Assembly (NCBI RefSeq): GCF_001447785.1
Contig: NW_015172027.1
Location: 339,843-403,842, forward strand
Reading direction: 5' to 3'
DNA length: 64,000 nucleotides
DNA from: Gekko japonicus
Lineage: Eukaryota
A program made the position numbers and the translations under genes. How positions within the stretch are numbered: position 1 is the first letter of the stretch; each line of letters starts with the position of its first letter. Under the pieces are notes generated by a model. That model was not told the DNA's origin. It did not search any database and saw only the letters and a program-made list of their open reading frames with translations. Shown here piece after piece: positions 737 through 30,964 of this stretch.

Positions 737-3650
737 GCTAATAGGACTAGTCAGAGATTATGGGATCATCAGGATCTTTATCCCTCTATCTAGAAATGTA
801 GCATCTAGCAGTGAACAGAGTTTTGGAGGTTGAAAATCCTATAGAATCTTTTCCTGGAGACTTCAGGAAAAGCTTCTTTGATGTGTCCTGCCTTGGCCAG
901 GGGTGGGCAAACAGAGATGTTAAAACTCCTTAGAAGGGACTCTTTGGTGCTGATTCCATCTGCGAGGCAGGAGATCTTTTACCTGAGCTTCTGCTGAAGG
1001 TGGCCATTGTCATGAGGAGGGCTGCAGGCGTCAGCAGAGGCTCTGAGTTAACAGGAACCCTTTAGAACCATTGTAACGTTTAAAGTAAGGCGCCTGAATA
1101 GATTAACATCAGCTAGGGCATGTACAGAAAGAGGAGCTGTGTGTTTATAATGTTCTTTTGGATCCTTTTGGATCCCTTGCTCACTCTGTTGCTGTGCTGA
1201 GAGTATGTGTGTGGGAATTTCATTTTTAACGTTTTATAACTTTTCATGCTGGGAGCTGTTTTCTGTACCACATAGATCTCCAATGTTTTGGGCAGCTATT
1301 TTTTTAAAAGCACCAGGAGAAGTTGCTACTCCCCCAGTGGTGGGCAAGTGCAATAAGCTGTCTGTGTGGTAAGGAGACACTGAGTCAAAATAAAAACAGA
1401 CATGAAGGTGATACTTGTAAAAAAGGCATTGCTTTGAACTATTTTTAAATCTTTCATTTTTCAATTCAATACATCCCATTTCAGACTCAGAAATTTATTA
1501 TGATCATAGATGAGAATAAAACATAAACATAGCAATCATAAAAGTAAATACAAAATGGTATTATAGTTATTTAAAATCATTATATAAATTAATAATACTA
1601 TATCACCCTATAATACAAAGTTTTATCTTTTAAAAGGGGGAGAAACCAAAATATTGGGAGGAGCACACATGAACGTAATACTTGCCCTGTCTACCTTACC
1701 ACGCCCATCCTCAGCACTCTACTCACCCCCCCATCCTTGGGGCTTTACCACCCTCACCCTCCATGCTCTACCTCCCTACTCCCACCCTCACTGCTCTGCC
1801 TAACCACTGTGCCCTCATCCCTTCTCTTACTTAGTTACTGCGGTAGCACTGCAGTAACTCTCCTATCTGGCTGGCCATCTAGATACCTGTCACATTAATC
1901 TAGATACCTGTCACATTAATTCACAGCCTCAACTATGGAAGTTCCCAGCCTTCTTGGCTGCTTCTCCACTCAGTGGTGGTAGTGCCACTGCCAGCCCACA
2001 CGTCCAGCTGCCTGTCTAGCTGGGTTGTCACCTTGAAGCAGCAACATGAACTCCCCTGCCTGCCTATTATGTTACCCAAAAGGGGCTGTCTCCTATTTTT
2101 GATTGGTGGAATTAGCAACTGAGACAGTGCAAGAGGGGGCAACCGAGATCTTCACCTATGTCTATGGGGATTGGTCCCTAGGGAAAACTCTCAAAAATGA
2201 ATCAGGCTGAAATTCAACCAGAAAAGTTTTTTTTAATTGTTATTGGAAAATAATTTAAAGAGAAGAACACATGCACAAGACACACCGAAAAAATACACAA
2301 GCTATCTAAGAGGGAAATAAAGTAAGGGGTGGGGAGAAAGTGATTTTGGGCCGATTCCGCACCAGTGCTTTACTTTCCTTCCCCCCTAGGTCTAATTGGC
2401 CCGATTCTATGTGCGCACTTCCACATTATGGAAATCTGACATGGGTTTATCCTGGGTGTTCATTTCTGCATGTGCCTTGCCCCGAATCTAGTGCCCCCTC
2501 CCCTGTCTTCCCCCTCCTTTTTTAAATGGAGGCGGGGTTGCATTGTAACACACCCGCCCACTGGGAAACTGGCATGCTTTACACATGCGTCGGTGCGTTG
2601 TGATGTATCCACCCACTGAAACAACCGTTGATCACGTAGGTGTTTGTTTGCGCAAGCGTGGCCGCGTCACAATGCAACCAACCCACAATTGGTTCCGTAG
2701 ATTTTTGAAATTAAAACCCCGGGAAAATAAGATAAAAAGAAATACCACCAACATCGATTGTGCATGCGTGGTTGCGTGTGTGGTTGCATTGTAACACAAC
2801 CAAAATTGGTCCCTTTAATTCTTGAACCTCAATGCCCGTGAAAAGCATCCATTGAATCTAGGTGCCACCAGCAACCTTCGTCGCCATCATGTCTTCTAGG
2901 TGAGTGAGAGTGGTAGGAGTTCTCCTGTCTCTGTTGAAGGTGATTATGCTCAGCCTGACTTCCTCAATCTATTTTTCACTGTTGTCAGAAGATCACGGTG
3001 GAGTAGAAGATATCTCCATGATCTGCAGTCTTCTGCCTTGTACAGATGTGTTTGTGATCTAGGCCATCATTTATTAGCATCTCGTTGCCAGTGTCAGAGA
3101 TGGCATGCGCTTGCTGGGATGCAGTTTCCCTGGCGTTACTGGGTTTCCCCAAGGAATTCGGACTGGTGGGCAAACTTTGTTGCCCCCCAAGTCGGAATAA
3201 CGAGGCAGACACTAGTGCTGGGTTTAACTATTGGGCCACTTTATTAAATAACAACTTTAAATAAACCACCAACGGCAAGGGCAAGACAGTTTAGCGGTAT
3301 GGACAAGGCCAGAGGTCTGTGACCCCTCCCTTATCTCGTGACATTGGGCGAGCCACCCTGCCCCAAGCGTTAGCCATCAGCAATGGCTTTCCCCCGGCGG
3401 CTGCCATTACTGGACAACCCCGCAGACCCAACCCCCGAGCCGCTAGGCTCAAAGAGCTGACTCAATCAGGGCGTTCCCGAAGGCAGTCAGTTTTCCCCGC
3501 CCCGTGCCGCAAGGCACAAAGACTGTACTCACCGACTCCTTCATCTCCAAATAATGGGTATCGGCTGGTGCTCACCGTACCGCAAACTGAATTCCGCCTA
3601 TAACCCTGCCACCGCTGAGGCCAAGCCTCTGCTTAGGCCTCCGCGCCCAT

Positions 3651-4225
3651 CTAGATACCTAGGGCCCCTCGCAGCCCTTGCCGTAAATCTTCCAAAAAGA
3701 TGTCCATCCCTTTTTCAGACAAATGGACCCCATCCTGTCTATAAAATGCATCACACCCTGCGTGTAAAACCGGGTGTGGCAAAAAGGCACCAAGGCCGCC
3801 CTCCAATGCGCGCTGTATCTCTCTGTTGGCCTTCCGGCGAGCCTTATCAATTGCTAATGGACTCAATGCTCCACGCCATACCTGGTGGGGTATCATGGCC
3901 GACCACACTATTTTAGTATGCGGCCATCGTCGAAGGATAAACTTAAAGTCCTCGCATGCCTGCAGGACCAACGCCTTGCCCTTTATCAAGCCTAAATCAT
4001 TCCCCCCCAAATGTATAACTAAAACGTGGGGTGGAAGCCCAGTCCTCTAGTGAAACAGCAACTTCAACAGGCCATGCCACTGTAGGCCACGACGACCCAG
4101 CCATTCCACAGTGGCCCATTGGCTAAGGCCCAACTGGGAACCAATCGTCGTCCGTCTGGCGCGGTGGGCTGCCCAAAAAACAAAACTGTGCCCGCAGACT
4201 AGAACCGTCTTCCTCCCCTGCCGGG
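3651..4225 (-). CDS. SGNH/GDSL hydrolase exon of the Ngaro element, with one in-frame TAG at 4049-4047
   Basis: ORFs 4047-4262 and 3651-4010 share a frame. Blocks VCGHS (Ser), WLGRRG (Gly), LGGND (Asn), DGVH (Asp/His). No ATG; preceded by branch point CTAAC (4256-4252), a pyrimidine tract and TAG acceptor (AG 4227-4226). Confidence 0.85.
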
Positions 4226-4320
4226 CTAGAACACATAAAACAGAAAACACAGTTAGAACCACAAAAGGTGAGGGGAGGGATCAATGAAAGCCCCCCCCAT
4301 GCACAACCTGCTGGATGGAG

Positions 4321-5238
4321 TTAATTATCCCCCAAAGGGCGCACATATGATTTATAGGCAGCAGAATGCCACCTCCCCAGCCGTTGAATGTCACGCGCTG
4401 GGTACCCCATTGCTGCAGCTGTAGAAGCAGCCCCAATACGGAAAGAGTGGGTGCAGAAACGCCTCCCAGACAGCCCCAACCTGACTAAAGCCCTTGTGGT
4501 GACAGACCAAAATTGGTGTTTTGTTAGGGGCGTGCCGTCCTGATGTTGAAACAACTCACCAGCCCGTAACCCCCTCACAGAAAGGTAAGATGCCACCGCC
4601 GCCACTGGGCACAGCTCCTTCTCCGCACAAGCACCCAGCTCTACAACCTTCCCCCGCTGCTGGTGGTCTGTTTTGGAACGCCTTAGCGTAATAGAGACCA
4701 TGACCGCGCTCAGCCTCACATCTTGAACCTGCAAAGCCCTTCTTGTAACATCATTTTTCGATTGGGCGACTAGTTCGCTAATGCGGAATGCCCCAAAGAA
4801 AGCCAAGAGGGCCGCCGCATGAAACAGCGATTCCTCAAAATCAGATGAACAAACTGTGTTCCAAGTGGCCTGCAGTCCCCTAAGAACATCCGGAGAGATG
4901 GGCTCCCAACGATCAACCTGTAATCCAGCCTCATGTGACCAACCCTCCAGGGTTTTGCGGATTTGAAAATTGCCCGTATAATCAGCACACCCTCTCGCTT
5001 TGCTGGCATAAGCAACTGCCGCTAACTTCCCTTTTATCGAGCTGATTGACAAGCCCTTACCTTTTGCCGTCACACAGAAGTGTAAAAGATGATCCACAGG
5101 AACAGGCCATAAGCAAGGATACCCTACCTCCTGTCTAATGTCAGAAAATTGAGCGACCGCACGGTCGTAAGCCCTCTTGGTACTTGGCGCAATGGCTATT
5201 CCTATCGCCCTGTTCACTTCCGCCTTCCAACCAACCAT
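4321..5238 (-). CDS. Tyrosine recombinase (305 aa)
   Basis: Catalytic motifs FFGAFRISEL (R), SKTD (K), HSFRIGAA (HxxR), LGRW...YKSY (Y); overlaps the RT/RNase H 3' end. Confidence 0.95.
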   Translation of the reverse strand: MVGWKAEVNRAIGIAIAPSTKRAYDRAVAQFSDIRQEVGYPCLWPVPVDHLLHFCVTAKGKGLSISSIKGKLAAVAYASKARGCADYTGNFQIRKTLEGWSHEAGLQVDRWEPISPDVLRGLQATWNTVCSSDFEESLFHAAALLAFFGAFRISELVAQSKNDVTRRALQVQDVRLSAVMVSITLRRSKTDHQQRGKVVELGACAEKELCPVAAVASYLSVRGLRAGELFQHQDGTPLTKHQFWSVTTRALVRLGLSGRRFCTHSFRIGAASTAAAMGYPARDIQRLGRWHSAAYKSYVRPLGDN

Positions 5239-7037
5239 AGCCCTGGTGGCATCCGCACCGGATGGAGGTCGGCGTCTGGGGCCAGCTGACGAAACCTCTC
5301 CATCTGTTTACGAAAGAGAGCGTCAGCCACCCCATTGTCAACCCCGGGTACCTGCCTGGCAAAAAACAGAATGTTCAGCTGGAGGCAATGAAGTGTAAAG
5401 GCCCTAACTAACTGCATAACCCGCGGGGACCTAGAAGATAGGGAATTAATGACCTGCACCACCACCAGGTTGTCGCACCAAAAGTGCACAGTGTGGTTGG
5501 CCAAATCCTCCCCCCACAGGTGAACCGCAACCAGTATGGGAAAAAACTCCAGGAAGGTGAGATCAGCTGTCAGCCCTTCGGCCGCCCAGGACACTGGCCA
5601 ATCTTCAGCGCACCAGTGCCCCCGGAAAAAGACACCAAAGCCCGATGACCCGGCCGAGTCCGAGTGAACTTGCAGTTCAGCTTCCAACTTAAGGTCATCC
5701 CTCCAAAAAGAAATGCCATTGAAGGAATTAAGAAATTCCAGCCACACTTCCAAATCCTGGCGCATGCCCGCAGTAATACGGAGCCTATGATGAGGGAGTT
5801 GTAGCCCTGCCATTGAGACACACAATCTGCGCAAAAAAGCCCGTCCAGGCGCCACCACCCTGCAGGCAAAATTCAAATGGCCTACAAGCTGTTGTAACTC
5901 CTTCAAAGTTGTCTTCCTTTTGCCTAAAAAACTTCCAATACGGCTGCGCAAATCCTCGAGCTTAACCGTTGTCAGCCAGGAAGCCTGCGCTACTGAATCC
6001 AGTTCCACCCCAAGGAAAGTGAGCACTTGTGCAGGGCCCTCTGTCTTTTCTTGCGCTAGTGGTACCCCAAGATCGTCAGCCAACGTCATAAATGCTAATA
6101 ACAACTGCTCACAACAACCCGACCCCTGGGGACCCACAAACAAAAAATCATCCAAATAGTGCGCAACCGAGCTGACTCCAGTACGGGCACGGAGAGCCCA
6201 CTCCAAGAAGGAACTAAATCGCTCAAAGGCAGCGCACGAAATGGAACAACCCATAGGCAATGCCCTATCCATATAAAACTTGCCCTCAAAACAAAACCCC
6301 AAGAGCTCAAAATCAGACGGGTGCACCGGAAGAAGGCGAAATGCTGACTTAATGTCGCATTTTGCCATCTCTGCTCCCATCCCACAACGACGAACAATGC
6401 GCACCGCCTGGTCAAAGGAAGTGTACCGAACCGAGCACAATTCCTCCGGGATGGCATCGTTAACAGAGCCGCCTTTGGGATAAGAGAGATGGTGAATGAG
6501 CCTGAACTCCCCAGGCGTCTTCTTGGGCACAATGCCCAAAGGAGAGACCCTAAAGTTGGGAACAGGAGGGGCAAGGAAAGGCCCCAATACCCTTCCTTCT
6601 TGAAGCTCCTTTGCAATCTTTTTCTTAACTATATGCTCCATACCCTGCACTGACCGGAGATTACTAGCCATGTAAGGAACCCTCTCGCCTTGGTAAGGAA
6701 TATGAAAACCTTGAGAAAAACCTTGCAACAAGTATATCTTATCTGAGCGTCAAGGATAACTGCGCAACAGGCGCTCAAGCACTCTCAACTTTATGGGCGT
6801 TGGCCCCCTTTCCATGCGACTGCCCTTGTCCGCTCCCATCTGGCCTTCTGCGACCCCTACGGGACTTTCCGCGGAAACAAGCGGAGAAGGGGTGGGGCCC
6901 CGAGCACAAGGGACACTCGTGCCGATACTTGCATGGCTGTCTGTTACACACCCCTTGAGCCCCAAATTCCCAGCAGATCTGGCGGGGTTGAACCACCTGC
7001 CCCGCCTGGGGGCGGGGAGTAGAAGACACATGCCCAC
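5214..7037 (-). CDS. Ngaro reverse transcriptase/RNase H, with one in-frame TGA at 6752-6750
   Basis: ORFs 6750-7037 and 5214-6731 share a frame (TPIKL..LL.SYP*..D..YLLQGF..GF.IPY). RT motifs KCDIKSAF, LPMG, YLDD; RNase H acidic residues DSAG, LEFFP, WCDN, VADAL. Confidence 0.92.
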
Positions 7038-8172
7038 GGTTCACCAAATGACCACTATGCGATCTCTCCCCCGTGTTTGGCCTAGAAGAGGCCATAACCT
7101 GTAGCCACAGGTGAGGGTGTATCTGATCCCATCGTAACGTGGGATTCATGGCCGCCCGCATCCTAAACTCCTCATCATACTGGAGCCCGGCGGGTCCCGT
7201 AAAACCTGTGTACCCCTTGTAAATTATATCCAAATACTGGAACAAGGATGCTGCTCTTACTGGCTGTGCTTTTGAAAGTACCCCTGCATATATGATAAAA
7301 CCTGCTACCCAATTAGCCCAGTTTCTATCAACCTTCATCCTTTTATACTTTTCTTTGTCCCTTTCCTCAAGATCCTCCTTCTCCTTTTTTTCCAGCTCTC
7401 GGTATAGAAGCGAAAAGAAATCTACGTATTCACCCCTGCAAATCTTATCTCTGGTAGCAGACAACAGATGATCGCCCAAAGGGAGTGCCAAGTCCCCAAA
7501 TGGGAGGGCCGTGGCAGACGTTGCAGCATAAGAGCCTCCATAAGGTGATGGGCCCCCCCACCAAGGCATTTCCAACAGGTCGCATGGCTGCAGCAATGCC
7601 GCCCTACAAACCGATGGGGAAGAGCCAAGCGATACCGTGCCACCACATGTATGCCCACAAGCCTGGCTACATACCAATGTGTTCTGGGGGAATGTTAATG
7701 AACTGCCCTCTGTTGGGTTGCCCCAGGGCCAACTACCCCTTGTGTGTTGTACCCCTGACTTACCAGCGGCCGACGATGGGCCGGCCATGGCATCCATCAT
7801 CCGTTGTTGCTCCACAGCCACCACTATACCAGCCGCTCCTTGGTCTGGCTGCACCGAAGAACCTTCTCTGCCCTCTACCTGCGTAGCAGTGCGCCTTTCT
7901 ACGAGAGACAAGCGCGTTAAAACTTCCACCTGAAAACGTTTATTGGCAGCAGCACGTGTTTCTTTTTGACCCCGAGTGCCGACACCCGGCGGAACCCGTG
8001 GAGTGGAAACACCTGTGGCCTTTTCAACTGCCAGAAGATGAGCCAAAATGGCTTGCCGCACTTCATCCTCCTCTTCATCACTAGAAGATGGAGCCGGGGC
8101 CGGCCGTTTCGGAGGTGCCTTTGGCGCTGGCTGCTTACCTTTGGACCGGCCTGACCCTTTTTTGGGTGCCAT
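6775..8172 (-). CDS. Ngaro gag-like ORF1 (465 aa)
   Basis: Open frame from ATG; basic N-terminus; C-terminal Cys/His finger CWEFGAQGVCNRQPCKYRHECPLCSGPHPFSAC; YDEEFR motif typical of YR-retrotransposon gag. Confidence 0.88.
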   Translation of the reverse strand: MAPKKGSGRSKGKQPAPKAPPKRPAPAPSSSDEEEDEVRQAILAHLLAVEKATGVSTPRVPPGVGTRGQKETRAAANKRFQVEVLTRLSLVERRTATQVEGREGSSVQPDQGAAGIVVAVEQQRMMDAMAGPSSAAGKSGVQHTRGSWPWGNPTEGSSLTFPQNTLVCSQACGHTCGGTVSLGSSPSVCRAALLQPCDLLEMPWWGGPSPYGGSYAATSATALPFGDLALPLGDHLLSATRDKICRGEYVDFFSLLYRELEKKEKEDLEERDKEKYKRMKVDRNWANWVAGFIIYAGVLSKAQPVRAASLFQYLDIIYKGYTGFTGPAGLQYDEEFRMRAAMNPTLRWDQIHPHLWLQVMASSRPNTGERSHSGHLVNRGHVSSTPRPQAGQVVQPRQICWEFGAQGVCNRQPCKYRHECPLCSGPHPFSACFRGKSRRGRRRPDGSGQGQSHGKGANAHKVESA

Positions 8173-8248
8173 AACTAAGCCTGAGCATGCCCCAACTGTA
8201 GAAAGTCACTCTAGCCCAAAGCAGCTATCCTTAATAATATAGCCAAAA

Positions 8249-8352
8249 CTATGGCTTGCCCAAGGTCATCCAGCAGCTGCAAGTGGAGGCGTGGTGAACC
8301 AAATCCGGTGCTCCCAGGTCAGGGTCCACACACAGACCACTACACCAGTTGG
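8249..8352 (-). mobile_element. tRNA-derived SINE head (Squam3-like) inside the Ngaro leader
   Basis: Aligns by eye to 32443-32546 (ATGGCTTGCCCAAGGTCATCCAG...ACCACTACACCA); box A-like TGGTGTAGTGG on the minus strand. Confidence 0.7.
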
Positions 8353-9424
8353 TGGCAAAGCGAAAGTAAGCTACCTCTCCAACCACAAAATGGCCGCCAC
8401 AAACCAGAAGCAATAAGATGGCCGCCAGTCCCGCCAAAATTGATACCAAGCCTTGCGGGGCAATGTAATTGCAGGCGCCAGCCCAGTCCTACTATGACCT
8501 ACAGGGGCCACTGGGTTCGCACACCCCTCAAAATCCCTCATGCCCCTGTAAAGGAGGGGCACCTCAGGGAAAGGACGAAGGGGGGGTGGATGAGGGGGGG
8601 TGGGCTGAAGCCTGCCGCTGCCCACAGAGACCCTGGCTACCCCCCGCAGAAAGTCCCCGCTGTGCACTGGGCCCCACCGGAACTGGCCGCCGCCCGCAAA
8701 ACAACCGTTCCCCCCTTTTCCCAGGTTAGAGAGAGCCTCCGATTAAAGCCCCCGACAAGACAAAAGAAACGCCCGGCCGCGCTGCCCCCAGCCCGCGCGG
8801 GCCCGGCACTCAAACCGCCTGTCGCCTGAAGGCTATCGCTCCCGTTCCAGAGTGCCTCCTTCTCCACGCCGGTCCCATGCTGCTCCGTTCCGCTCTCAAG
8901 CCGCTGCTCCCGACCTCGCATCCTGCCGGAGGTTCCTCGCCCCCTGAACAGACACCGCACGAGGAGCTCTGTGCTGAAGCCCACCAGCCCCGCTACGGAG
9001 CTCCTCCTTCCCCGAGACCAACGCGGCACTGCTGAAGAGGGACGGAGGGGCCAGCTCTTAACTGCTCGGCCCCGCCTCCCTCTAAAACCCCGGATTAGCG
9101 CTTTTGGCGCCAGAATTGCCCGCCTCGTCCGACAGGGAGGCAAAGGCGCCTCCCCCAGCCCAACGGCCGCAAGGGCCACGGGCTGTTGGATCCGTATTCT
9201 CAGAGTCTGGAGCAATAAGCAGTGGTTGGAGCAATAAGCAGTGGAGCAATTTCAGAATGACCTGTTCAACTTTCATGGGGATTGTCTCTGTCCTGCAACC
9301 CAGGCTTCAATGGCAAACAACAAAGATGTGTTCACCAATTCCCACAGATAAGCGCATGGCTGCAGCCGTTTGGTACTTGGCAAACACAGACACCTACTGT
9401 GAAGTTGGTGAACAATTTGGAATT

Positions 9425-11424
9425 TTATGCTGGTTTATGGCCAGCACTCACCTCTCTTCAAAAACCAACTATGAGGCTGTGGCAAGGAGACTGGCCAGGA
9501 GGGGCTTTAATAGGACTCCAGATCAATGCCGTTCCAAATTTAAGAGACTGAAGTGTGACTTCATGGCCAGCCTGGAAGCCTGGGGGGGGGATCCCTCGTG
9601 CAAGTGGCCAAACACCACACCATGCAAAGATGGTGCAATTGTAGACCGATGGCAGGAGACCATGTTGGGAAGACAGACACCATGAGTGTGAGTCAACACA
9701 GATATCATTGGATTGTGAGAGCAGCAGTGTATAACAATGATTGGGCATAGACCATATATGATTTTAGAAATATTTTGAAGTTTAAATCCACAGCTGCCTT
9801 TAATGGCGAGTTAGGAGTGTTTAGGGTATTAGCTCTCCTACATGAACCTCACTGTTCAAAATACTGATGCTTGTGAAGTAATGTAAGTTGTGCACCCAAG
9901 CTCATACCCAGAACACAACTTGGTTGGTTGAAAGAGTGACTCACAACAGTGATCTACATTTGTTAATCTTCTTCAGACAAACATGGCGATAAAGAAATTG
10001 TCTTTTTAAACTGCTTGTCTAGGGATGAGGTTACATGGGTATACTTTCTAAACCAGATATTGAGTGACACATTGAATTTAATGACACAAGAGGTGGAGGG
10101 GGATGGACATGTATGGACATCCTCAAGAGCAAATTTGATACAGTTATGGTGCAGAGATCCATCAATTGCTATTGGCCACAGGGTTTAATTAGGGAATGTG
10201 TGGAAACTGATGCACTCAATTTTGGGTGCTTGGAGGGTGGTCCACAGTTAGAGGTTCTTGTGTCCAGTCATCCCTGGTGGCTCTGTTGATGGCACTTGGC
10301 AATTTTTGACCACTGTGCCTCATCTTGTGTTATGTTATGAACAAAGGGGGGAAATTAATGCTTCTTCCATTACTCTGAATGATTGCAGTGTGCCTAACTG
10401 CTTGGTATGAGAAGATAAACAAACAGTACACCACAAAATAAACATAACCAGCCCTGTTCTCAGAAGAGAGAAGAGGTAAATCAAATGCGGCCACACAGAT
10501 AGAAATAAATAGAAATAAAGTTTTATTACTGTGCGAATCACTGTCATATACCTAGGTGTTGTTTCCCCCCAAAAAAGGTGCGCTCTGTCCTGTATAAAGT
10601 AAGAGGGAGGTGGGACAGCAATTCTGGGTGAAAGATACCAAAATAGGCCGGGACGGCTTCAAACTTTCTTTCTCCTTGCATCATCACAGTGGCAGGGCAT
10701 TCCACGCCAACGTGACCCTGAGGAAGAACCACCACCACCAGCATCACCAGGGAAACAGGAAGGGGGACATGAAGTGGTGCAGGAAGAGACGGAAGAGGAG
10801 GACCCTGCGGGAGGCACCAGTCCACCAGCAGTGATGGCTGCAGCACCAGCTACTGTGAAATGAACGGCAGCATTACTAATGGCATGCACAGGAAGAACAA
10901 AAAAAGAATACCTGCACAAGAAATGCAGTGCTCATGGGGAAAAAACAGTGCTTCTAGGGCCATAGAGTTAAATAACAGTTAATGGTTGCCTAATTCCTTT
11001 TTTGACATAGATGTTGGAGTTGGAGGAAGACTACACTCTCCATCGGGTGAGGGGCCATCGACATATTTATCTAGTGGGGGGGGCATCTGCTGCGGTGAAT
11101 CCCCAAGAAGAGGAGTGGGCGGTGGTTCCAGAGAGTACGCTGGAAGCCATTCAGCATCTGGGGACATGCTGCCTCTCCACCAGTGAGCTCATGTTGACTT
11201 TTGAAGTAATATTTCTAGACTGCACTTATATCTATCAGTGAAAGCAACATTCATTCTACTTTTCTTTTCTTCTAGTGAGGGCATTTGGCGAACGCCTGGT
11301 CGCAGTTGAAAAAAGGCAAAGAAGAATGGAGTGGGAAAGAAGGGCACTGCGAGCCAGCCAAGCTGCAGAGAGAGGGTCCGGTGGTCCAGCTATGGGCAGT
11401 GCTGAGGGCACTCATAGTGCTTGA
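9425..11424 (+). pseudogene. Harbinger-associated Myb/SANT (trihelix) gene remnant 1, multi-exon
   Basis: NYEAVARRLARRGFNRTPDQCRSKFKRLK matches the trihelix RT..QCR.K.K.LK signature. Downstream exon-like blocks with AG/GT ends lie at ~11011-11182 and 11276-11424 (coiled-coil-like ERLVAVEKRQRRMEWERRAL). Confidence 0.65.
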
Positions 11425-18930: not shown

Positions 18931-19861
18931 ATGGCCACAGGAGGGAGCGGACCCAGAAAAGGTTCACTAACATCACCTGGTCAGACTAGTAGTCAAACAC
19001 AACTTAAATTTGGGACGATGAGTTCGGGGCAGGCACAGAGCAAAGAAATGAGAAATCTAATTAAGGAAATTGTGGAACAAACAACTAAACATATAATTGA
19101 AGATTCGTTGCCAATTCTATTGAAAAAAGAAATTGAACCGTTACAGACACAAATCAATGAGATGAGAAAGCAGGAGTTGGAGCCAATCCAGAAGTCCATC
19201 ACTGAAATATCACAACAAATGAAATTAGACATGGAGGAAATCAAAAAGCAAATACATGAAAACAAACAGGAAATATTGAAATTAGCGGCGGATAGCGCAG
19301 GTACTGACAACAGAGTCCAAGAGTTGGATCAAGAGGTTTATGACTTAAAATGCAATATAGGAAAGTTGGAGGAGACACTGATGGGCCTAGAGCTAGACAA
19401 AGCGGCAATGGTAATTAGGTGCCAAAATGTGCCAGAAAGCATAGAAAAAAACTTAAAAGAAGAACTGATTGAGAATATTTCGCAGCAACTGAAAGTGGGA
19501 ACGTGCGAAGAAATTGAAAAAGAAATAGATGCAATTTATAGGAGGAATACTGTTTACTCAAGAAGACATAAAACTCCAAGGGAGGTACAAATAAAATTCA
19601 ATGGAAGACAGATGAGGGACAAAATCTTAAAAGCAGCAAATGAAACATCAGTTAAGATCAATGAAACTGAAATAAAAATTTTGAAAGATGTGCCGTGGAG
19701 AATACGGGAAAAACGACAAACCTACTATGTTCTGACAGATTTATTAAGAAATTCGAATATTCCTTATAGATGGCTCATTCCAGAAGGGATACTTTTCTCA
19801 ATAAAAGGAAGAAGATTTAAAATTGACTCCATATTTAAAGTGCAAAATTTCTTGGAAAACT
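18931..19861 (+). CDS. L1 ORF1p (runs into the gap)
   Basis: Open frame from ATG; heptad coiled coil followed by RRM/CTD-like motifs shared with the other ORF1 copies here. Confidence 0.85.
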
Positions 19862-21287
19862 NNNNNNNNNNNNNNNNNNNNNNNNNNNNNNNNNNNNNNN
19901 NNNNNNNNNNNNNNNNNNNNNNNNNNNNNNNNNNNNNNNNNNNNNNNNNNNNNNNNNNNNNNNNNNNNNNNNNNNNNNNNNNNNNNNNNNNNNNNNNNNN
20001 NNNNNNNNNNNNNNNNNNNNNNNNNNNNNNNNNNNNNNNNNNNNNNNNNNNNNNNNNNNNNNNNNNNNNNNNNNNNNNNNNNNNNNNNNTATGCAGCCGA
20101 CCAAAAGAAAAAGAAAAAAGGAGTAGCAATATATGCTAAAGAAGATCTAAATCCTGAACTAGCATTTGCACAATCAGATGGAAGAGTCGTAGCAATTACG
20201 ATAAATAGGAATAGTAAGAAACTAATGATAATAAATATATATGCACCAAATCAAAACCAGGAAAATTTTTATAAATCATTAAAAGAAGTAATAGCACTAC
20301 AAGATTTTGACGAATTATGTCTTGTTGGTGACTTTAATGCAGTGTTTGAGACAAAATTCGATAGAAAAAACTCTGGGAAGAATAAAAGATGGGGCAATGT
20401 TCTACCAAAACCCTTTTTGGAATTAGTGGACGAACAAAATCTAGTAGATGTTTGGAGAGTAAGAAACTTGGAAAAAAAAGATTTTACTTTTTACTCAAAC
20501 AGTCACAAATCATGGTCAAGAATAGATATGATATGGTCATCAATATCATTACTTAGCGAAGTTGAAGAAATAGAAATCCTTCCACCGACCTTCGCTGACC
20601 ACAATCCCATGTTAATGTCTATACGGGAAATCCCCAAAAAATTGAGATGGTATCTAAACAAAAAACTGATAAATAAAGAAAGCTTTGTGGAAAAAACTAA
20701 ACAGGAAATAAAAGAATTTTTTGAAAATAACACTCGAGTAGAAACATCAAGTTTAACAATTTGGGACACATTTAAGGCATACCTAAGAGGAGTGTTTATA
20801 AATGAAGAAGCATGGGTGCAAAAACAAAGAAAGAAAGAATATAAAGACTTGATAATGCGAATAAAACAAAAAGAAGACAAACTAAAAAAGGGGGAAAACG
20901 AAGATCAATTTAAAGTCGAGCTCAAACTACTCCAACATCGATTAAATCTTATGCTAAGCAAGAACTAGCCAGAAAATTGGAATATACAAAACAATACTTT
21001 TTTGAGAACGCGAATAAACCCACAAGATGGCTGGCCTATAGGATAAAGAAAGAAAAGGCAAAAAAAATCATTACGACGCTTAAAGATGAAAAGCAGCTAG
21101 AAAAGAATAATATTGTGGATTTGAAAGACATAGTCGAAAAATTCTATGGGAAGCTATACCGACAAGAGTATATAAATCCCCAAAAAACAAAAGGAAAAGA
21201 AAAGATCACAACAAAGAAGAGCTTACCCCGCAGCATCTCAAGTAATTACAAGATACAGAGCAAACTTGAAGAAGACAAGTAACCAAT

Positions 21288-24200
21288 ATGGAAAGAAGTA
21301 GAAAGACAAATATCATTTCAGTAAACGTTGAATAGTCCCCAGAAACGTAGATGAATTTACCCGCAAATTAGTAAACTCAAAGCAGGAGTTGTTTGTCTAC
21401 AAGAAACGCATATAAAAGAAAGTGATAACAAATACTTAGACTCAAAAAAAAAAGGAAAATTATTTTATTCAGCCGACCAAAAGAAAAAAGGAGTGGCAAT
21501 ATATGCTAAAGAAGATCTAAATCAGGAACTAGTATTCGCACAATTAGATGGAAGAGCCGTAGCAATTACGATAAATAGGAATAGTAAGAAACTAATAATA
21601 ATAAATATATACACACCAAATCAAAACCAGGAAAATTTTTTATAAATCACTAAAAGAAACAATAGCACTACAAAATTTCGACGAACTGTGTCTTGTTGGC
21701 GACTTTAATGCAGTGTTTGAGACAAAATTCGATAGAAAAAACTCTGGGAAGAATAAAAGATGGGGCAATGTTCTACCAAAACCCTTTTTGGAATTAGTGG
21801 ACGAACAAAATCTAGTAGATGTTTGGAGAGTAAGAAACTTGGAAAAAAAAGATTTTACTTTTTACTCAAACAGTCACATCAAATAGTCATAAATCATGGT
21901 CAAGAATTGATATGATATGGTCGTCAATATCATTAATTAACGAAGTTGAAGAAATAGACATTCTTCCACCGACCTTCGCCGACCACAATCCCATGTTAAT
22001 GTCTTTACGGGAAACCCCCCCAAAATTGAGATGGTATCTAAACAAAAACCTGATAAATAAAGAAAGCTTTGTGGAAAAAACTAAACAGGAAATAAATGAA
22101 TTTTTTGAAAATAACACTCGAGCAGAAACATCAAGTTTAGTAATTTGGGATACATTTAAGGCATACTTAAGAGGACTGTTTATAAATGAAGAAGCATGGA
22201 GGCAAAAACAAAGAAGGAAAGAATATAAAGATTTGATAATGCGAATAAAACAAAAAGAAGACAAATTGAAAAAGGGGAAAAACGAAGATCAATTTAAAGT
22301 CGAGCTCAAACTACTCCAACATCGATTAAATCTTATGCTAAGCAAGAACTAGCCAGAAAATTGGAATACACGAAACAGTATTTTTTTGAGAACGCGAATA
22401 AACCCACAAGATGGTTGACCTATAGGATAAAGAAAGAAAAGGCAAAAAAAATCATTAAGACGCTTAAAGATGAAAAACAACTAGAAAAGAATAATATTGT
22501 GGATTTGAAGGACATAGTTGAAAAATTTTATGGGAAACTATACCAACAAGAGTATATAAATCCCCAAAAAACAAAAGAATATTTACAAAGATGGAACACC
22601 AAGAAATTTGATGAAAAACAGAAAAAGATATTAAATATTCCAATATCAAGTGTAGAGATTTCAGAAGCAATTAGGAAACAAAAAAAGAACAAGACTCCCG
22701 GTCCAGATAATATCCCAACTGAAATATATCAGAAATTTGAAGAACAAATAGCTAAGCCTTTTCAAGAAGTACTATTGGAAATAGCGCAGGGAGGAAGAAT
22801 GCCACAGTCATGGGATGAAGCCCTGATTACTCTAATCCACAAAACAAACACTGATGCAAAAGACATAAAGAATTATAGGCCCATATCACTGCTTAATGTG
22901 GACTATAAAATCTACGCGTCTATAATAGCTGCAAGGTTAAAAAAGGTTCTAGCGGAAATAATACATGAAGATCAGACTGGGTTTCTGCTTAATAGACAAA
23001 TGAAAAGAAATTTAAGAACACTCATGAACGTATTGGAATTCTATGAACTACATCCAAGCGATCAGTTGGCGTTAATCTTCTTAGATGCTGAAAAGGCTTT
23101 TGATAGAGTATCTTGGGACTTTATGCTTCAGAAGCTAGCAAGCTGGGATTGTGGAGAAAGCTTCTACACAATGATAAGAGCGATATATTCAAAGCAAACT
23201 GCTAAAGTAATAATAAATGGAGATACGACAGAAAAGATCCAAATACAAAAAGGTACGAGACAAGGATGTCCACTGTCACCTTTACTATTTATCTTTATGT
23301 TGGAAACACTAACAGACCAAATAAGAAACAACGATAGAATAACAGGGCTCAAGATACAGAAAGAAACGTATAAGTTGCAGGCATTTGCAGATGATTTGGT
23401 TTTTGTGGTTGAAGACCCAGGTAAATCTATACCAGAATTAATGGAAGTAATTGAAAAATACGGAGAAGTGGCAGGATTAAAAATAAACTATAACAAGACA
23501 AATATCTTAACAAAAAACTGTACAATACAACAAACAGAACAGATAGAAAGGGTATCTCAAATGAAGATTGTTACTAAAGTTAAATACTTGGGAATAATAA
23601 TCCTGGGAATAATAATATCCAAAAGAAACAACACGCTAATCGAGGATACTACATTAAGTTATTAAAAGATATAACAAATGACTTAACAAAATGGGGAAAT
23701 CTTCAAATATCTTTCATGGGAAAAATATCTGTATTAAAAATGAACATCCTTCCGAGGTTCTTATTCCTAGCACAGAATATACCGGTCCTGAGAAACGCAA
23801 AAATCTTTAACGAACTTGATAAAATATGCAGAAAATTTGTATGGGCTAATAAAACCCCACGGATAAAATGGAAGATTCTGCAAGATCGAAAAGAAAAAGG
23901 GGGTGTGAACCTCCCAAATTGGAAGCTTTATTATTCTGCAGCCACAATGTCCTGGATAAAAGAATGGATTATTCTAGAAAACAAGAGACTATTAACGTTA
24001 GAAGGTTTCGACTTGGATATGGGATGGCATGCGTATATAGGCTATGATAAAGATAAAACACATAGCAAGTTTAATCGACATACTATTAGAGGGGCATTAA
24101 ATAAAATCTGGAAGGAGATAAAAGACAAACACTATCTCAAAACTCCTAGATGGCTCTCTCCTCTGGAAGCCTTCATTAAGCCATCTTTAATGAAAAATAC

Positions 24201-25032
24201 AGAGTTGTTGACGTACGAAACTCTTTTAGATAAAATGGGTAAAGTAAAAACACAAGAAGTGCTCGAGAAACAAGGAATAAAGCTATCCTGGTGGGAAAAC
24301 ATGCAACTGAGATCATGCTTTGAGAAGGATGAAAAAAAAGGAATTTATGTTGAAAAAAACGAGCTGGATAAACTATGGTTATCCACAAATGACAAATTAA
24401 TCAAAAAACTTTATAACCTATTCCTTACCAATTTTGAACTAGATGAAGAGATTAAATGTACAATGATTATATGGATGCAGGATTTAGGTTATATTATAGA
24501 AGATTGGTCCAAAATTTGGATAACCGCAAAACAAGTAAGAGCAATTCCTTTTAAAGAAAATATATTTAAAATGTTTCATCGGTGGCACTGGTCCCCGGAT
24601 AAAATAGCTAAATGTTATCCGAATGCATCCAGAAACTGTTGGAAGTGTAAAAATAATGTGGGCACCTTCTATCATATGTGGTGGAGATGTCCCAAGGCTC
24701 AATATTATTGGCAGAAGGTACATAAGATGTTAAGGGATATGTATGAAATAGATGTACCTCTTAGACCAGAAATGTTTCTGTTGAATGTAATGCCAGACAA
24801 GTTGAAAAATGAAGAAAAATACGTTATAGGATTTATTCTTACGGCAGCACGTATTTTGTTTGCCAAAAACTGGAAAGCTGAGAGGATACCGTCACGAAGT
24901 GAATTAATTATCAAATTACAAGAGGTAGTTGAAATTGATAAACTGACTACAATTTTAGAAAATAAGAATATGGATATATTTATGAATAGATGGAGAAGGT
25001 TTTACAAGTGGATGAATGAAAATAAGATGTAA
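21288..25032 (+). pseudogene. L1 ORF2 (EN-RT-Cys), frameshifted
   Basis: Pieces 21912-22352, 22361-23665 and 23716-25032 in different frames. Confidence 0.9.
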
Positions 25033-25937: not shown

Positions 25938-27525
25938 TTTTTTTTTTAATCCCTTGAAGACAGGGTAGCTTTATTATTTTTTTGTTACACCTAGACACTA
26001 CAGAAAAGAAAAAGGGAAGGGAAAAAGTTAACCCAGGATAAAGGACAGCAAATAAAAAACCCACACTATGACTAAAAACCCAAGAGGGAGGGTCCATAAC
26101 TGTTAGTCTCCTGTTAGTATTCAAAATTAATAGCTTTTCGTTTAAGTCAATGTAATCGGAAATTAGTGAGTTCAAATTAGTATTCTCATCATCGCTTTCT
26201 GTATGTGCTCAAAGTTCTTTCATCCTCATCTTTGCTTGCAGATCTCAAGTTTATAAAGAGTTACTTTGGTCTTCTAAGTCGCAGATCATATGCTTCTTTG
26301 GCCTCGCCACCTGTTGCTCTTTGGTCTCCGTCCCCATCTTCAATGGTATCCGCTCCGCCCTCTCCTTCTTGCTGTTCCTCTTCTTTCACTCCAAAAAACC
26401 GCTTCAACCATTCTTCCGCTTTAAAGACTGAGTCAATTTTTTCCCTTTTGTCTCTGTACTTGAACACGACGCCTTCCGGGAAATTCCAGGAATATGGAAT
26501 TTGATTGATCTGCAGGGTTGAAATCAACTCCTTATATGCTTTTCTTTTTTCACGAACCTCAAACGGGATATCTTTTAAAATCCTGATGGTTGTTGCTCCC
26601 AGCTGCAGGGGATTAGCTGCTGTTGCTTTAAGGATGTCGTCCCTCATCTGTCTTTGGAGAAACTTGATGACAACTTCACCCGGCAGGTTATTCCTTTTAA
26701 TATACTTTGGGTATGGTCGATAGATCACCTCGATTTCTGCTTCCACTTCTGCCGATAAACAGCCTGTCGCCGGTGCAATCAGCTCTGCCATCATCTTTTT
26801 CAAGTTTTCTCCTTGCGATTCTGCTATCCCCTGAAATTTGAGTGTTTTGTTTGCTTTTTCCATTTGAAGGTTCAACAATCTACGTTCCTGTAGATCTTGC
26901 CTCTGCTCAAGCAGACCAACTTTCTTTTTGACTTTCTTGGTATCGTGCACTGTCTCTTTAAGTTTTTCATCTGTTTGGATTGACTTTTTGACCAGCTCGG
27001 CAATCTGCTGCTGTTGCTTTGCTAGGCTTTGATTGGATGTGGTCATCTGTTGGTTAATACCATCAAGTCTCTCGTTTATTGGCTTGAGCAGATCCAATAG
27101 CATAGAGTACAGATCTCCTGTCTCCTCAATTCTCGGACTTTGACCGCCCCGCCCAACTTGTCTGCCTGGTTTTCCCCACGCACCGGCCATTTTCTTCTTT
27201 GTTTACACTAGAAGACCTCCTTCACTCTTCCTCGAAAAAGCGCTTAACTTTTTCTGCAAACGCAGCTAAGTCCTTTTTGCACTCTAACAATCTTCTCCCC
27301 CCCCCCTATTTTCTTTAACACAGTTCAGTTTGTTTGCGCCCGGGAAACTTCCCGGATGCCGCTTTCAGATGGGTGGGGGGGGAAACTTACTTTTAAAACT
27401 TTTTCACTGGACTCTTTCTCCGACTCATTGACAGTCTGCATCCAGACACCTTGTAACTTCGATAAATTGCTGACCCTCACTGCTTGTCCCGGCCGGCATC
27501 AGCTATGCTCGGTAGAAACCGAGCC
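25938..27525 (-). mobile_element. HAL1-like (ORF1-only) L1 derivative with poly(A) and 17-bp TSD
   Basis: TSD ACTAGAGGCAAAATCTT at 25921-25937 and 27526-27542. Intact ORF1; AATAAA about 25 nt before the poly(A) (plus-strand T run from 25936); no ORF2 start in the 3' UTR. Confidence 0.85.
26261..27190 (-). CDS. L1-type ORF1p, intact, 309 aa
   Basis: Coiled coil, then IRILKDIPFEVREKRKAY, YSWNFPEGV and KIDSVFKA, homologous to the ORF1 at 18931. Confidence 0.88.
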   Translation of the reverse strand: MAGAWGKPGRQVGRGGQSPRIEETGDLYSMLLDLLKPINERLDGINQQMTTSNQSLAKQQQQIAELVKKSIQTDEKLKETVHDTKKVKKKVGLLEQRQDLQERRLLNLQMEKANKTLKFQGIAESQGENLKKMMAELIAPATGCLSAEVEAEIEVIYRPYPKYIKRNNLPGEVVIKFLQRQMRDDILKATAANPLQLGATTIRILKDIPFEVREKRKAYKELISTLQINQIPYSWNFPEGVVFKYRDKREKIDSVFKAEEWLKRFFGVKEEEQQEGEGGADTIEDGDGDQRATGGEAKEAYDLRLRRPK

Positions 27526-27897
27526 ACTAGAGGCAAAATCTTGAGAGAGTTTGTAAACGCCGTCACTGTACTTTTTTTTTCTCTTTAAATTTTAAAACCA
27601 AACCAATTTCACTTTTGCATCATATTACAGAGCCGGTCCGTATTTAAAAGTTTTTTGGGGGAGGGGAGGAGAGGGGGCTTTTAGCGACTTTGATCTCTGC
27701 CTCAGATTTGCAGCAGACAAAGCTAGACAAAGGCAAGGGGGTGGTTGCCGAGTCAAGAGCGGGGGGTGGGGGTGGCGGCTGGGTGCAGAGGAGAGCAGTG
27801 CGGACCAGGCTCGTTTCCCCCGAACCCCCATTTTCTAATCAGCATCCTCCTGCAAATTGCGTCCCCCCCATGCCTTGCGGCCGATAAAGGAGCCAAG

Positions 27898-27963
27898 ATG
27901 GGGTTTTTGCACCAACTCTACCTCTTGCTGTGGAAGAATGTGACCCTCAAGCGACGGAGTCTG
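27898..27963 (+). pseudogene. ABCA2: ABCA2-like first coding exon, apparently orphaned
   Basis: Kozak [32 protein letters not shown] then GTTAGT donor (66 nt, phase 0). Matches the ABCA2 N-terminus [22 protein letters not shown] as recalled. No next exon (WVLAFEIFIP) found by eye. Confidence 0.8.
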
Positions 27964-28102
27964 GTTAGTGATTGCCTCTTCTCCTGCTTCCTCCTGGCCG
28001 GAAGCGGGGCGGCAGGAAGCAGGGGGTGGGGCTTAGTCGTGTGCCCCGCCCTCACCCGGGGGATCGGCGATCCCCCACATTCCCCCCCAACCGACCTCTG
28101 AA

Positions 28103-29900
28103 TCAACTCTGGATGTAGGTATTCTTTAGCATATATTACTACTACTCTTTTTTTCTTCTCATCTGATGCTGCAAAAGCTGTGCCCAGTTTTTATTCTATA
28201 ATATTTTATTTCATCTTTCCTAATGTGTGTCTCTTGAAGACATGTTATGTCTGCTTGTAGTTTGTGGATTTGGTGAAAAAAAATTCTTCTTTTTTGAGGG
28301 CTATTCAGTCAGTTCATGTTTATTGATAAAATTTGAAAAAAATTATTCTGGCCCATTTTTGTTTCTATAATCTCTGGCCTTGTATCTGGTTAGCATCTGG
28401 TAGGGTATATTTGATCTCTCCCCCCCCCCTTTTAAGATTTCTTTTCATCTTTTTCTTTTTCTTCTTCTTATCTCGATTTTTCTTCTTCTAAATCTGTTTC
28501 TTCTCCCTCCCTATCGTCTCCTTCTTCTTTCTGCCATCCCAGATCCTCCCCAAATTTTTCCAGAAAATTCCCAACTTTGAAAATAGAGTCAATTTTTTGT
28601 CTTCTCCCTCAAATCTCAAAAAGTATTCCTTCAGGTATTAACCACCAAAATTGGATGTTATTTGATCTTAGTAAGTCCGTTAGAATGTAATAATTTTGTC
28701 TCTTTACTCTTACCCTCCAAGGGATTTCTTTCAGTATTTTAATCTCTTCCTCTCAGATTGTAACTTTATTTTGGCTCGCCTGTTTCAAATTTTTTCTTTG
28801 ATTTCTTTTTTATAGAATTTTATATGGACTTCTCCTGGTATTTTATGTTTCTTCACATAGGCCGAGTTTCTTCTGAAAGTTGACTCAATTTCTGAGGCAA
28901 TTTCTTCCTTTGTCCCTATTTCAAGTTGAGAAGCAAAGCTCTGTGCTATTTCTTCTTTCAGATCTTTATCCACACTTTCTGGTATGTTCTGACATCTAAG
29001 TATAAGAGCTGCTTTGTCCATTTCCAGGGATATCAGAGATTCTTCTATCTTATCTCCCTTAATTTTTAATTCCTGAATTTCATAGTCTAATTCACGCACT
29101 TTTTTTGTTAACTCATTACTATTAGATATCGTTAACATTTCTTGTTTATTTTCTAGTATTTGTTTTTTAATTTCATCAGTTTCTGATTTAATTTGATTTG
29201 ACATTTCTTCCATCTTCACTCTTAGAGGTTCAATTTGTGTTGATAAATCCATCTTTTCTCTTATTGGATCAGTTTTTTCTTAATTGCTTGAGTTACACAC
29301 TCTTGGATCATTAGATTTAAATCTTTCATATTCATTTGTGGAAGAGACATTGTGCTTGTTTTGAGTTGGGTTAAATTACCTATTTGACTTGGTGATGTAA
29401 TGATTGTTTCCTAGATCCACTAGATCTTGAGGCCATTAATTACTAATTAGGAATTAATTGATAGTTATTCAATTTATTAGTATGTTTAATATGTCTTTGT
29501 ATAGTCCTGTATGTCTAGTGATTTTCTATTAATATTCTGTAACTTTCCTTATTCCTTAGGTGAGATACTAGCAGGCCTAGTGATAGGGCCGGTCCTGCTG
29601 ATGTTCTTTGGGGGGATTCCCTTATTATGTAGATTAAATTCAAAATCTTGTTTTTGTGTGTCCCTTCTCCCTAATTTGGGTTCAGGTCGTGACCTGTGGC
29701 TGGCCCTGTTTTAGTGCCTTAAGGATATCCAATGTAAACCTCAGCAGGCTGGTTAATATTGCTGTATCCACCACTTGCCCAAGTTAAAGGCTAGATGAGC
29801 AGGAGTCTACTAGAATTCAGGCATATTCCACTGTGTGTGTCTTGAGGAGAGGCCCCTGGTGTGATTAAATACAGAACCATCCAAACCATCCCTGAAAAAG
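28103..29900 (-). mobile_element. Decayed L1 5' part (UTR, broken ORF1, start of ORF2 endonuclease); 5' boundary uncertain
   Basis: ORF 28785-29252 (LEMDKAALILRCQNIPES) is homologous to the 18931 ORF1; CLQETH endonuclease motif near 28230. Confidence 0.8.
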
Positions 29901-30773
29901 AGACTTTGATATTTGAGTGCTTATGTGTTAGGCAATGAAACCGGTCCATGTATCGAGATCAGAGCTTCTGCATAGTTTGGCTACTCTGAATGCATTATTT
30001 TAAAACTTTAAAAAACACATAAGCTCTATAAAGGATGCCTGATGGAGAGCATGTTTATAGCCCTCCAAGAAGGAACAGGATGTGGAATGTCCTTTAAGAA
30101 AGTAAAAAGCAAAAGAGAAAACAATGGGGGAATTGTTCTGCTTGCAGGGTTGCCGGGTCTGGGTTGGAAGATACCTGGAGACTTTGGGGGTAGATCCAGG
30201 AGAGGGCGGGGTTTGGGGAGGGGAGGGGCCTCAGCATGGCACAAGGCCACAGAGTCCACCCGCCAAAGCAGCCATTTTCTCCAGGGGAGCTGATCTCTGT
30301 CAGCTGGAGATCAGTTGTAAATGCGGGAGATCTCCAGGCCCCACCTGGAGGCTGGCAAACCTTTCTGCTTGAGCCTCTGAAAACTTCTTTCAACCTGAAG
30401 CGGAAGTTCTAGGTCAGCATGGGCGGATTTCCTTATGCTTTATCCTTCCATTAATTTCTCACAGCATCCACAAATTGTAATTTATACAGAAATACCATAT
30501 TTTTTGCTCCATAAGACGCACTTTTCCCCATCCTCTACCCTCCCATTAATTTCTCACAGCATCCACAAATTGTAATATTATATAGAAATAAATAAAGGAA
30601 AGGACACCATGTAGACCAGGGTGCACATTTTATCTTTCATCTCCCACCTTATCAAGACATTAAGCCATGGCAAAATTGGATGAATACATGAGAAGATCAG
30701 CTCCAGCCTCCTAAATCACATGCCTGCTCAAAGAGTATGAAAGAAGCCCAGAACTTCAGTATCTTCTGCCATC

Positions 30774-30964
30774 TCAAACCCCTCTGGAAGGCCGGGTACA
30801 GTTAGCAGGAGGGAAAGGAGAAGGGTCTCGTCCATTGCATTTCTCAGTGTGGCAACAAGTGACAATCTGAATCTCATCGATCTTAGGAAACATGTAAAGT
30901 GTGTTACATTCATCGTCATTCCACTCACTGACACATCCATTAGTCACTTCAATAAGGTTTTTAC
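30774..30964 (-). CDS. Three-finger gene 1, terminal exon
   Basis: CCCCCTCACAG acceptor, phase 1; (G)KNLIEVTNGCVSEWNDDECNTLYMFPKIDEIQIVTCCHTEKCNGRDPSPFPPANCTRPSRGV* with the diagnostic CCxxxxCN. Confidence 0.9.

What the first reader, a model, noticed from the sequence alone, without database searches (positions are those of the whole stretch)
3651..8172. Ngaro element appears to make a spliced Gag(1-136)-SGNH hydrolase fusion protein
Seen: the hydrolase ORF (GHS / G / GGND / DGVH) has no ATG. It is preceded on the minus strand by a textbook acceptor: CTAAC at 4256-4252, a T-rich tract and TAG| at 4228-4226. Inside gag there is a perfect CTG|GTAAGT donor (exon ends 7764, intron starts 7763). 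The donor falls 409 nt (136 codons + 1) after the gag ATG, and the acceptor enters the hydrolase at codon position 2, so the join is in frame (...GPSSAA-A-RQGRKTVLVCGHS...). The splice removes the gag C-terminus, RT/RNase H and YR. Known: some animal Ngaro elements carry an SGNH ORF; I am not aware of this expression route being described. Inference: a retrovirus-like subgenomic mRNA yields a ~327-aa protein. Its shared Gag N-terminus could co-assemble the esterase into particles, echoing esterase-containing ORF1 proteins of some LINEs. This copy has a TAG at 4049-4047.
Basis: partly seen in the sequence, partly recalled or inferred. Interest (0 to 1): 0.85.

Follow-up and report, generated by a model that had tools for sequence, protein, structure and literature searches.

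The report
Spliced Gag-esterase fusion in lizard retrotransposon
A lizard jumping gene appears to cut out its own replication genes by splicing, so that the front end of its structural protein is joined to a lipid-cleaving enzyme (and perhaps also to its integrating enzyme), which would explain how this enzyme gene without a start codon is expressed.

Summary
The window holds an Ngaro-like element (3178-9188, minus strand) with a phase-1 donor in gag (7764/7763) and an SGNH frame lacking a usable ATG. Of 199 related proteins retrieved, 26 are Gag N-terminus + SGNH fusions, from geckos, Anolis, Elgaria, Pogona and Rhineura. Two match unspliced gags residue for residue up to a Gly-Lys, the donor's footprint.

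Correction: relatives join 14 codons before GHS (23 of 23).

Extension: isoform models also splice the gag exon into the recombinase frame at a fixed site (window 5304/5303), so a Gag-recombinase fusion is possible, though no full-length example was seen.

The shared Gag piece has two helices with RhxxhE coiled-coil motifs, echoing ZfL2-1 ORF1p. This copy is dead (stops in RT and SGNH, no split repeats). The evidence is gene models, not reads. I found no description in ten literature searches, but the key reviews were unavailable.

The parts
3178..9188 (-). Whole Ngaro-like element, bounded by a 5-nt direct repeat (TGTTG at 3178-3182 and 9184-9188); no split direct repeats
   Evidence: the flanks continue one reading frame across the insertion; no terminal repeats found
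8173..9183 (-). 5' non-coding region, 62% GC; presumed promoter and 5' UTR (inferred)
6775..8172 (-). gag-like ORF, 465 aa, intact; no Pfam hit; Cys/His-rich C-terminal part
   Evidence: full-length relatives at 36-51% identity
7764..8172 (-). Shared first coding exon, Gag 1-136 plus one base: basic N-terminus, acidic stretch, two helices with RhxxhE motifs, low-complexity linker
7758..7766 (-). Phase-1 splice donor CTG|GTAAGT, encoding Gly-Lys-Ser 11 residues before the WPW motif
8133..8141 (-). Second phase-1 donor-like site AAG|GTAAGC in the conserved KGK motif; not used by any model with a recognisable Gag N-terminus
5214..6839 (-). RT/RNase H frame with its own upstream ATGs; broken by TGA at 6752-6750
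   Evidence: (RVT_1 E=7e-11)
5303..5326 (-). Phase-1 acceptor into the recombinase frame (CTGAC 5326-5322, pyrimidine tract, CAG| at 5304/5303); overlaps the end of the RNase H coding region
   Evidence: register matches inserted exons of relatives
4321..5303 (-). Tyrosine recombinase frame, open; Gag(N) joined here would give 463 aa
   Evidence: (Phage_integrase E=7e-9)
4226..4256 (-). Branch-point-like CTAAC, T-rich tract and TAG acceptor (4226/4225); the family junction maps to 4235/4234, which has no AG in this copy
3651..4225 (-). SGNH hydrolase exon, all four catalytic blocks present, premature TAG at 4049-4047
3240..3245 (-). AATAAA polyadenylation-signal match near the 3' end

Best explanation
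Squamate Ngaro-like retrotransposons express their SGNH hydrolase from a subgenomic mRNA. A phase-1 donor inside gag (about codon 137-145, at a Gly-Lys) is spliced to an acceptor after the recombinase stop, removing the gag C-terminus, RT/RNase H and YR. The product is an approximately 325-395-aa protein: basic N-terminus, two short coiled-coil helices, flexible linker, catalytically intact esterase. Shown here: the signals, the frame, the fusion models, the junction register and the fold. Inferred: that the mRNA is really made (gene models only); that the shared helices let the fusion co-oligomerise with full-length Gag and so load the esterase onto the particle or RNP (about 0.45); and that the esterase binds or cleaves membrane lipids like the ZfL2-1 enzyme (about 0.4). 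The same donor also reaches an acceptor in the YR frame, which may be how the recombinase is made (about 0.45). This copy is a dead one.
For: (1) 15 of 24 hits of 334-2000 aa, 3 of 36 hits of 104-333 aa and 8 further representatives carry Gag(N) then SGNH: 26 of 199 proteins, none with gag C-terminus, RT or the catalytic part of YR. Named ones come from Eublepharis, Heteronotia, Gekko kuhli, Anolis sagrei, Elgaria, Pogona and Rhineura. (2) Unspliced gag P0026 and fusion P0006 share 44 identical residues, and P0027 and P0005 share 49; each pair diverges right after a Gly that is followed by Lys in gag. (3) Gly-Lys sits 11 residues before WPW in 4 of 6 gags and is the only GK within 60 residues. 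(4) The residue 14 before GHS is G, D or A (codons starting with G) in 23 of 23 fusions, against a 45% background (three long isoforms left out as duplicates); these fall into 13 clusters at 70% identity and 8 at 60%. (5) Three isoform pairs fix that junction exactly. (6) Unspliced ORF calls P0037, P0058 and P0089 have G at -14 preceded by F/L/S/C/Y/V/I in 10 of 10, 8 of 10 and 7 of 9 residues, against 0-4 of 10 in fusions: a translated pyrimidine tract. (7) RhxxhE motif in 21 of 27 Gag N-termini, shuffles mean 0.6 and maximum 4. (8) Model of P0001: two helices, disordered linker, SGNH fold with Z 19.7, rmsd 2.9, 182 aligned to PAF-AH.
Against: No reads or relative DNA were seen; junction bases in relatives are inferred from residues. 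Gene predictors can invent or propagate such joins, and reads from one copy can map to many. None of the 19 Logan/ENA entries is a contiguous fusion, and one search returned no such entries, so no spliced contig was caught. Two of 6 gags (P0025, P0029) lack the Gly-Lys at that place. The KGK site at 8138 is an equally good donor by consensus. Outside the recognised fusions no fixed junction appeared among 77 proteins, so amphibians are not shown. In Xenopus all ORFs are reported to overlap (PMC9210276, section 8), which leaves room for another route there. This copy cannot make the enzyme.
Confidence: 0.85

Rival explanations
1. The fusions are annotation artefacts or splicing noise: Gly-Lys codons make donor-like sites, predictors join them to a strong acceptor, and homology propagates the model.
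For: Four donor-like sites tie and all are phase 1. Donors inside YR vary from model to model. SGNH exons also appear attached to keratin, V2R, ZNF318-like and POP5 models. No spliced contig among 19 unnamed entries.
Against: One junction register in 23 of 23 fusions over SGNH segments 29-89% identical. It appears in RefSeq models and in a GenBank-submitted Gekko model. Numbered isoforms exist, which by recall need transcript support. The ORF keeps catalytic residues yet has no shared start.
Confidence: 0.08
2. The hydrolase is made alone, from its own upstream AUG, a non-AUG start or reinitiation after the YR stop; the spliced form is minor.
For: An in-frame ATG at 4346 overlaps the YR end. 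Xenopus SGNH ORFs overlap their neighbours. 9 of 19 unnamed ORF calls start before block I.
Against: TGA at 4283-4281 closes that ATG here. Those 9 starts lie at scattered positions (about 2 to 48 codons upstream), and 10 of 19 calls start after the catalytic Ser. A dedicated branch point and T tract sit in the 95-nt gap.
Confidence: 0.04
3. The functional mRNA uses a different donor (8138, or a 5' UTR or host exon), giving a short-leader esterase; the acceptor mainly serves exon capture.
For: AAG|GTAAGC at 8138 is phase 1 and lies in the nearly invariant KGK. Many models start inside the linker or in unrelated exons. One unnamed protein, P0099, has a short basic leader.
Against: All 26 models with a recognisable Gag N-terminus keep both helices or most of them. 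Models that start inside the linker still use the same donor position.
Confidence: 0.03

Closest known systems
Hydrolase-bearing Ngaro elements (Xenopus DIRS-53_XT, DIRS-54_XT; PMC9210276, passages and section 8)
   Same: gag, RT/RH, YR, then an SGNH ORF; no methyltransferase; hydrolase described as of no proven function
   Different: Described there as a fourth separate, overlapping ORF in amphibians; 'splic' and 'intron' occur 0 times in that text. Here it is a lizard element with a 95-nt gap carrying an acceptor, and this copy lacks split direct repeats.
ZfL2-1 ORF1p and esterase-bearing CR1/RTEX/Penelope ORF1 proteins (PMC3905857, passages)
   Same: N-terminal coiled coil, basic motif and SGNH esterase with Ser/Gly/Asn/Asp/His; similar size (esterase D136-I302 there, from about residue 140 here)
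   Different: One unspliced ORF of a non-LTR element with a dimeric coiled coil. Here the layout is assembled by splicing from a gag. Kinship of the two esterases is not shown: 4C1B scored only E=0.23.
MLV SD' RNA and P50/P60 (PMC10496198, passages)
   Same: A donor inside gag joined to a downstream acceptor gives an in-frame Gag N-terminal fusion that is packaged in virions
   Different: Retrovirus; the partner is the last 116 aa of integrase, not a whole enzyme. Here the partner is a complete esterase with no other route to expression.
Spliced subgenomic gag RNAs of Ty1/Copia and BARE (PMC5580714, PMC3735527; search listing and abstract starts only)
   Same: A retrotransposon uses splicing to make a second mRNA
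   Different: By recall those RNAs give Gag alone; here splicing swaps the Gag C-terminus for an enzyme.

Membership tests
Ngaro superfamily | gag-like ORF1, RT/RNase H and tyrosine recombinase, co-oriented | tested here: met
   gag is assigned by position, with no Pfam hit
Ngaro superfamily | No methyltransferase domain; little ORF overlap (PMC3266345, PMC4157794, passages) | tested here: met
   No MT hit in Pfam at E<=0.1; the RT and YR frames overlap by under 100 nt
Ngaro superfamily | Split direct repeats A1-[ORFs]-B1A2B2 | tested here: not met
   None in this copy. Xenopus copies often lose them, and both ends are present, so loss by recombination is plausible. Filed as Ngaro-like only.
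Ngaro superfamily | SGNH ORF after YR (hydrolase-bearing subgroup) | tested here: met
Ngaro superfamily | RT groups with reference Ngaro elements | not tested
   No reference Ngaro RT was retrieved; the tree covers SGNH domains only
DIRS1-like superfamily | Inverted terminal repeats with ICR; MT domain; LAP2alpha-type gag | tested here: not met
   No terminal inverted repeats; no MT or LAP2alpha hit
SGNH/GDSL hydrolases | Four blocks Ser, Gly, Asn, Asp-x-x-His | tested here: met
   motifs matched in 138, 177 and 141 of 193 hits
SGNH/GDSL hydrolases | SGNH fold | tested here: met
   Model of relative P0001: 124 Foldseek matches at E<=0.001; Z 19.7, rmsd 2.9, 182 aligned to PAF-AH
SGNH/GDSL hydrolases | Esterase activity | not testable with these tools
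   Needs an assay
Esterase-bearing LINE ORF1p (ZfL2-1 type) | ORF1 of a non-LTR element | tested here: not met
   The element encodes a tyrosine recombinase; the resemblance is architectural only
Esterase-bearing LINE ORF1p (ZfL2-1 type) | Esterase of the same transposon-borne lineage | tested here: inconclusive
   4C1B at E=0.23; not among the rows shown

The most novel reading that the evidence does not exclude
Ngaro-like elements run a small splicing programme: one donor in gag feeds two acceptors, so the same basic, coiled-coil Gag N-terminus is placed on full Gag, on the tyrosine recombinase (463 aa here) and on the esterase. That would give a DIRS-order element a way to translate its downstream ORFs and to load both enzymes onto its particle through one oligomerisation tag. 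Support: inserted exons in P0009, P0012, P0015, P0171 and P0137 enter the YR frame 26, 26, 27, 26 and 26 residues before a conserved Trp, as the window's acceptor would (26). Against: all five leave the YR frame again; no full-length Gag-YR protein was seen and no YR homologue search was run; YR has its own Met at codon 24; and the acceptor overlaps the RNase H end, so its conservation may be a by-product.
Probability: 0.45. Interest if true: 0.85.

Novelty: new variant of a known kind. Interest (0 to 1): 0.7.

Why it matters
The Ngaro hydrolase has been listed as an orphan ORF of unknown function (PMC9210276, PMC6681497, passages). This gives it an expression route and a defined protein to assay. 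It also suggests that a YR retrotransposon reached the coiled-coil + esterase layout of ZfL2-1 ORF1p by splicing, which supports a general role for lipids or membranes in retrotransposition. If the YR splice holds, it addresses how downstream ORFs of DIRS-order elements are translated. It further re-labels many 'uncharacterized' lizard gene models as transposon transcripts.

Tried and rejected
Complex prediction of three copies of Gag 34-98 gave no answer (score 0.01, alignment not used); it is not evidence either way. The ESM Atlas gave no usable hit for Gag 1-110, and the Gag helices were not searched alone by fold. Split direct repeats and inverted termini were sought and not found. A fixed junction column among 77 other proteins with long N-termini was not found. 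No second copy of the element lies in the window. The SGNH tree puts the window among gecko sequences without starred support; two rows (P0016, P0071) were dropped by a slicing error. Accession-level look-up of the gene models could not be made, so their transcript support stayed unchecked. No eukaryotic DNA collection was available; viral and metagenome contigs stayed unchecked. The supplement of PMC9210276 (copy coordinates) could not be read and may bear on Xenopus ORF overlaps. Goodwin and Poulter 2004 and Poulter and Butler 2015 were not held, and Repbase was not available. The 8138 donor was considered and found unsupported.
Full report
What is there. The minus strand of 3178-9188 holds a retrotransposon with gag (8172-6775), RT/RNase H (to 5214), tyrosine recombinase (to 4321) and an SGNH hydrolase frame (to 3651). 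Its ends are marked by a 5-nt direct repeat, and the flanks continue one reading frame across it. No split direct repeats, inverted termini or methyltransferase were found, so I file it as Ngaro-like. The closest named relatives are gecko proteins at 64-66% identity. The copy is dead: TGA at 6752-6750 in RT and TAG at 4049-4047 in the hydrolase.

Observation. The acceptor is the best on the sense strand by a simple home-made score, applied to the filtered subset of 412 AGs, and sits in the only strongly T-rich AG-ending 30-mer of the coding region. The donor is the only G|GTAAGT of 365 GTs, but three other sites tie with it and all are phase 1, so the window alone could not settle the claim. 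No ATG can start the hydrolase before its catalytic Ser: 4346 is closed by a TGA and 3896 is too late.

Evidence from relatives. Searches with the hydrolase gave 24 proteins of 334-2000 aa and 36 of 104-333 aa; the gag gave 7; a profile gave 3254 representatives at E<=0.001, of which 150 were listed. Of the 199 distinct proteins, 26 carry the Gag N-terminus followed by SGNH, without gag C-terminus, RT or the catalytic part of YR. Two Eublepharis fusions match unspliced gags exactly for 44 and 49 residues, then diverge after a Gly that is followed by Lys in gag. That Gly-Lys is what G|GTAAG encodes, and it lies 11 residues before WPW in 4 of 6 gags, the window included; 2 of 6 lack it. In 23 of 23 fusions (three long isoforms set aside) the residue 14 before GHS is G, D or A, against a 45% background; no other of the 26 columns examined exceeded 15. 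The 23 form 13 clusters at 70% identity and 8 at 60%, so they are not fully independent. Three isoform pairs fix the same junction. Three unspliced ORF calls show a translated pyrimidine tract just before that position. The 19 Logan/ENA calls share no start, and 10 begin after the catalytic Ser.

Correction. The family junction maps to window 4235/4234, where this copy has no AG.

Extension. The exons inserted in the longer Anolis and Elgaria isoforms, and in two unnamed proteins, begin in the recombinase frame 26-27 residues before a conserved Trp. In the window that position is a phase-1 acceptor at 5304/5303 with a branch-like CTGAC; it ranks 17th by score and third among sites with a branch motif. 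Gag(N) joined there would give 463 aa with no stop. All five models leave the YR frame again at different places, no full-length Gag-YR protein was seen, no YR search was run, and the site overlaps the RNase H end. I put the Gag-YR fusion at about 0.45.

Anatomy and mechanism. The model of Eublepharis P0001 (mean pLDDT 71.6) shows helices at 35-54 and 72-94, a disordered linker and an SGNH domain that matches PAF-AH and GDSL esterases. An RhxxhE motif, a coiled-coil trimerisation motif as described in PMC5940361 (passages), occurs in 21 of 27 Gag N-termini; 1000 shuffles gave a mean of 0.6 (my pattern allowed V at both hydrophobic positions). ZfL2-1 ORF1p has a coiled coil, an arginine-rich motif and an esterase that binds phospholipids and liposomes (PMC3905857, passages). 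The most likely reading is that the shared helices let the esterase co-assemble with Gag and target the particle to membranes. This step is inference.

Limits. All support from relatives is protein-level gene models. That numbered RefSeq isoforms need transcript support is recalled, not checked. No spliced contig was caught. A fixed junction was not shown outside squamates, although five named amphibian genera have models with long low-complexity N-termini before SGNH.

Literature. Ten searches turned up no description of spliced Ngaro or DIRS hydrolase expression. I read passages of PMC9210276 (plus section 8), PMC7192593, PMC9341512, PMC6681497, PMC8547959, PMC3266345, PMC4157794, PMC8498967 and PMC3783388 for splicing, intron or hydrolase terms; none described it. 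The founding paper and the 2015 review were not held, and Repbase was not available, so prior notice cannot be excluded. The closest mechanistic precedent is MLV SD' RNA, whose gag-internal donor yields the packaged Gag-integrase fusion P50 (PMC10496198, passages).

Verdict. The feature is real and most likely a conserved expression route of squamate Ngaro-like elements (0.85): a new variant of a known kind, interest 0.7, and higher if the recombinase splice proves functional.

Noticed in passing
window 3002-3182 and 9189-9685 (+): The element interrupts a reading frame that continues across the insertion. It resembles a PIF/Harbinger transposase N-terminus by recalled motifs (no Pfam hit) and runs into a Myb/SANT-like domain (Pfam E=7e-10).
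   Followed up: partly
window 8242-8347 and 32435-32542: A 108-nt stretch upstream of the gag ATG matches another site in the window at 83%; probably a SINE fragment inserted in the 5' region.
   Followed up: partly
P0109, P0134, P0141, P0142, P0167: Unnamed proteins of about 2000 aa combine cold-shock (CSDE1-type) domains with a C-terminal Ngaro-type SGNH domain; possibly a domesticated hydrolase exon or another element.
   Followed up: partly
P0067, P0068, P0069, P0072, P0078, P0093: Long unnamed proteins with four to six SGNH-like stretches.
   Followed up: no
P0003, P0010, P0013, P0065: Host gene models (keratin, V2R, ZNF318-like, POP5) include the hydrolase, suggesting its acceptor captures host exons or misleads annotation.
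   Followed up: no
window 5060 and 4559 (-): Two more phase-1 donor-like sites inside YR; relatives' models leave the YR frame at varying positions.
   Followed up: partly
window about 19000-25000 and 27500-30000: AT-rich, strongly skewed segments with a 93-94% identical duplication spaced about 1.37 kb apart (20109-22178); likely LINE remnants.
   Followed up: no
window 30100-39500 and 56200-57050: A family of short dispersed repeats, up to 7 copies, in both orientations; SINE-like.
   Followed up: no
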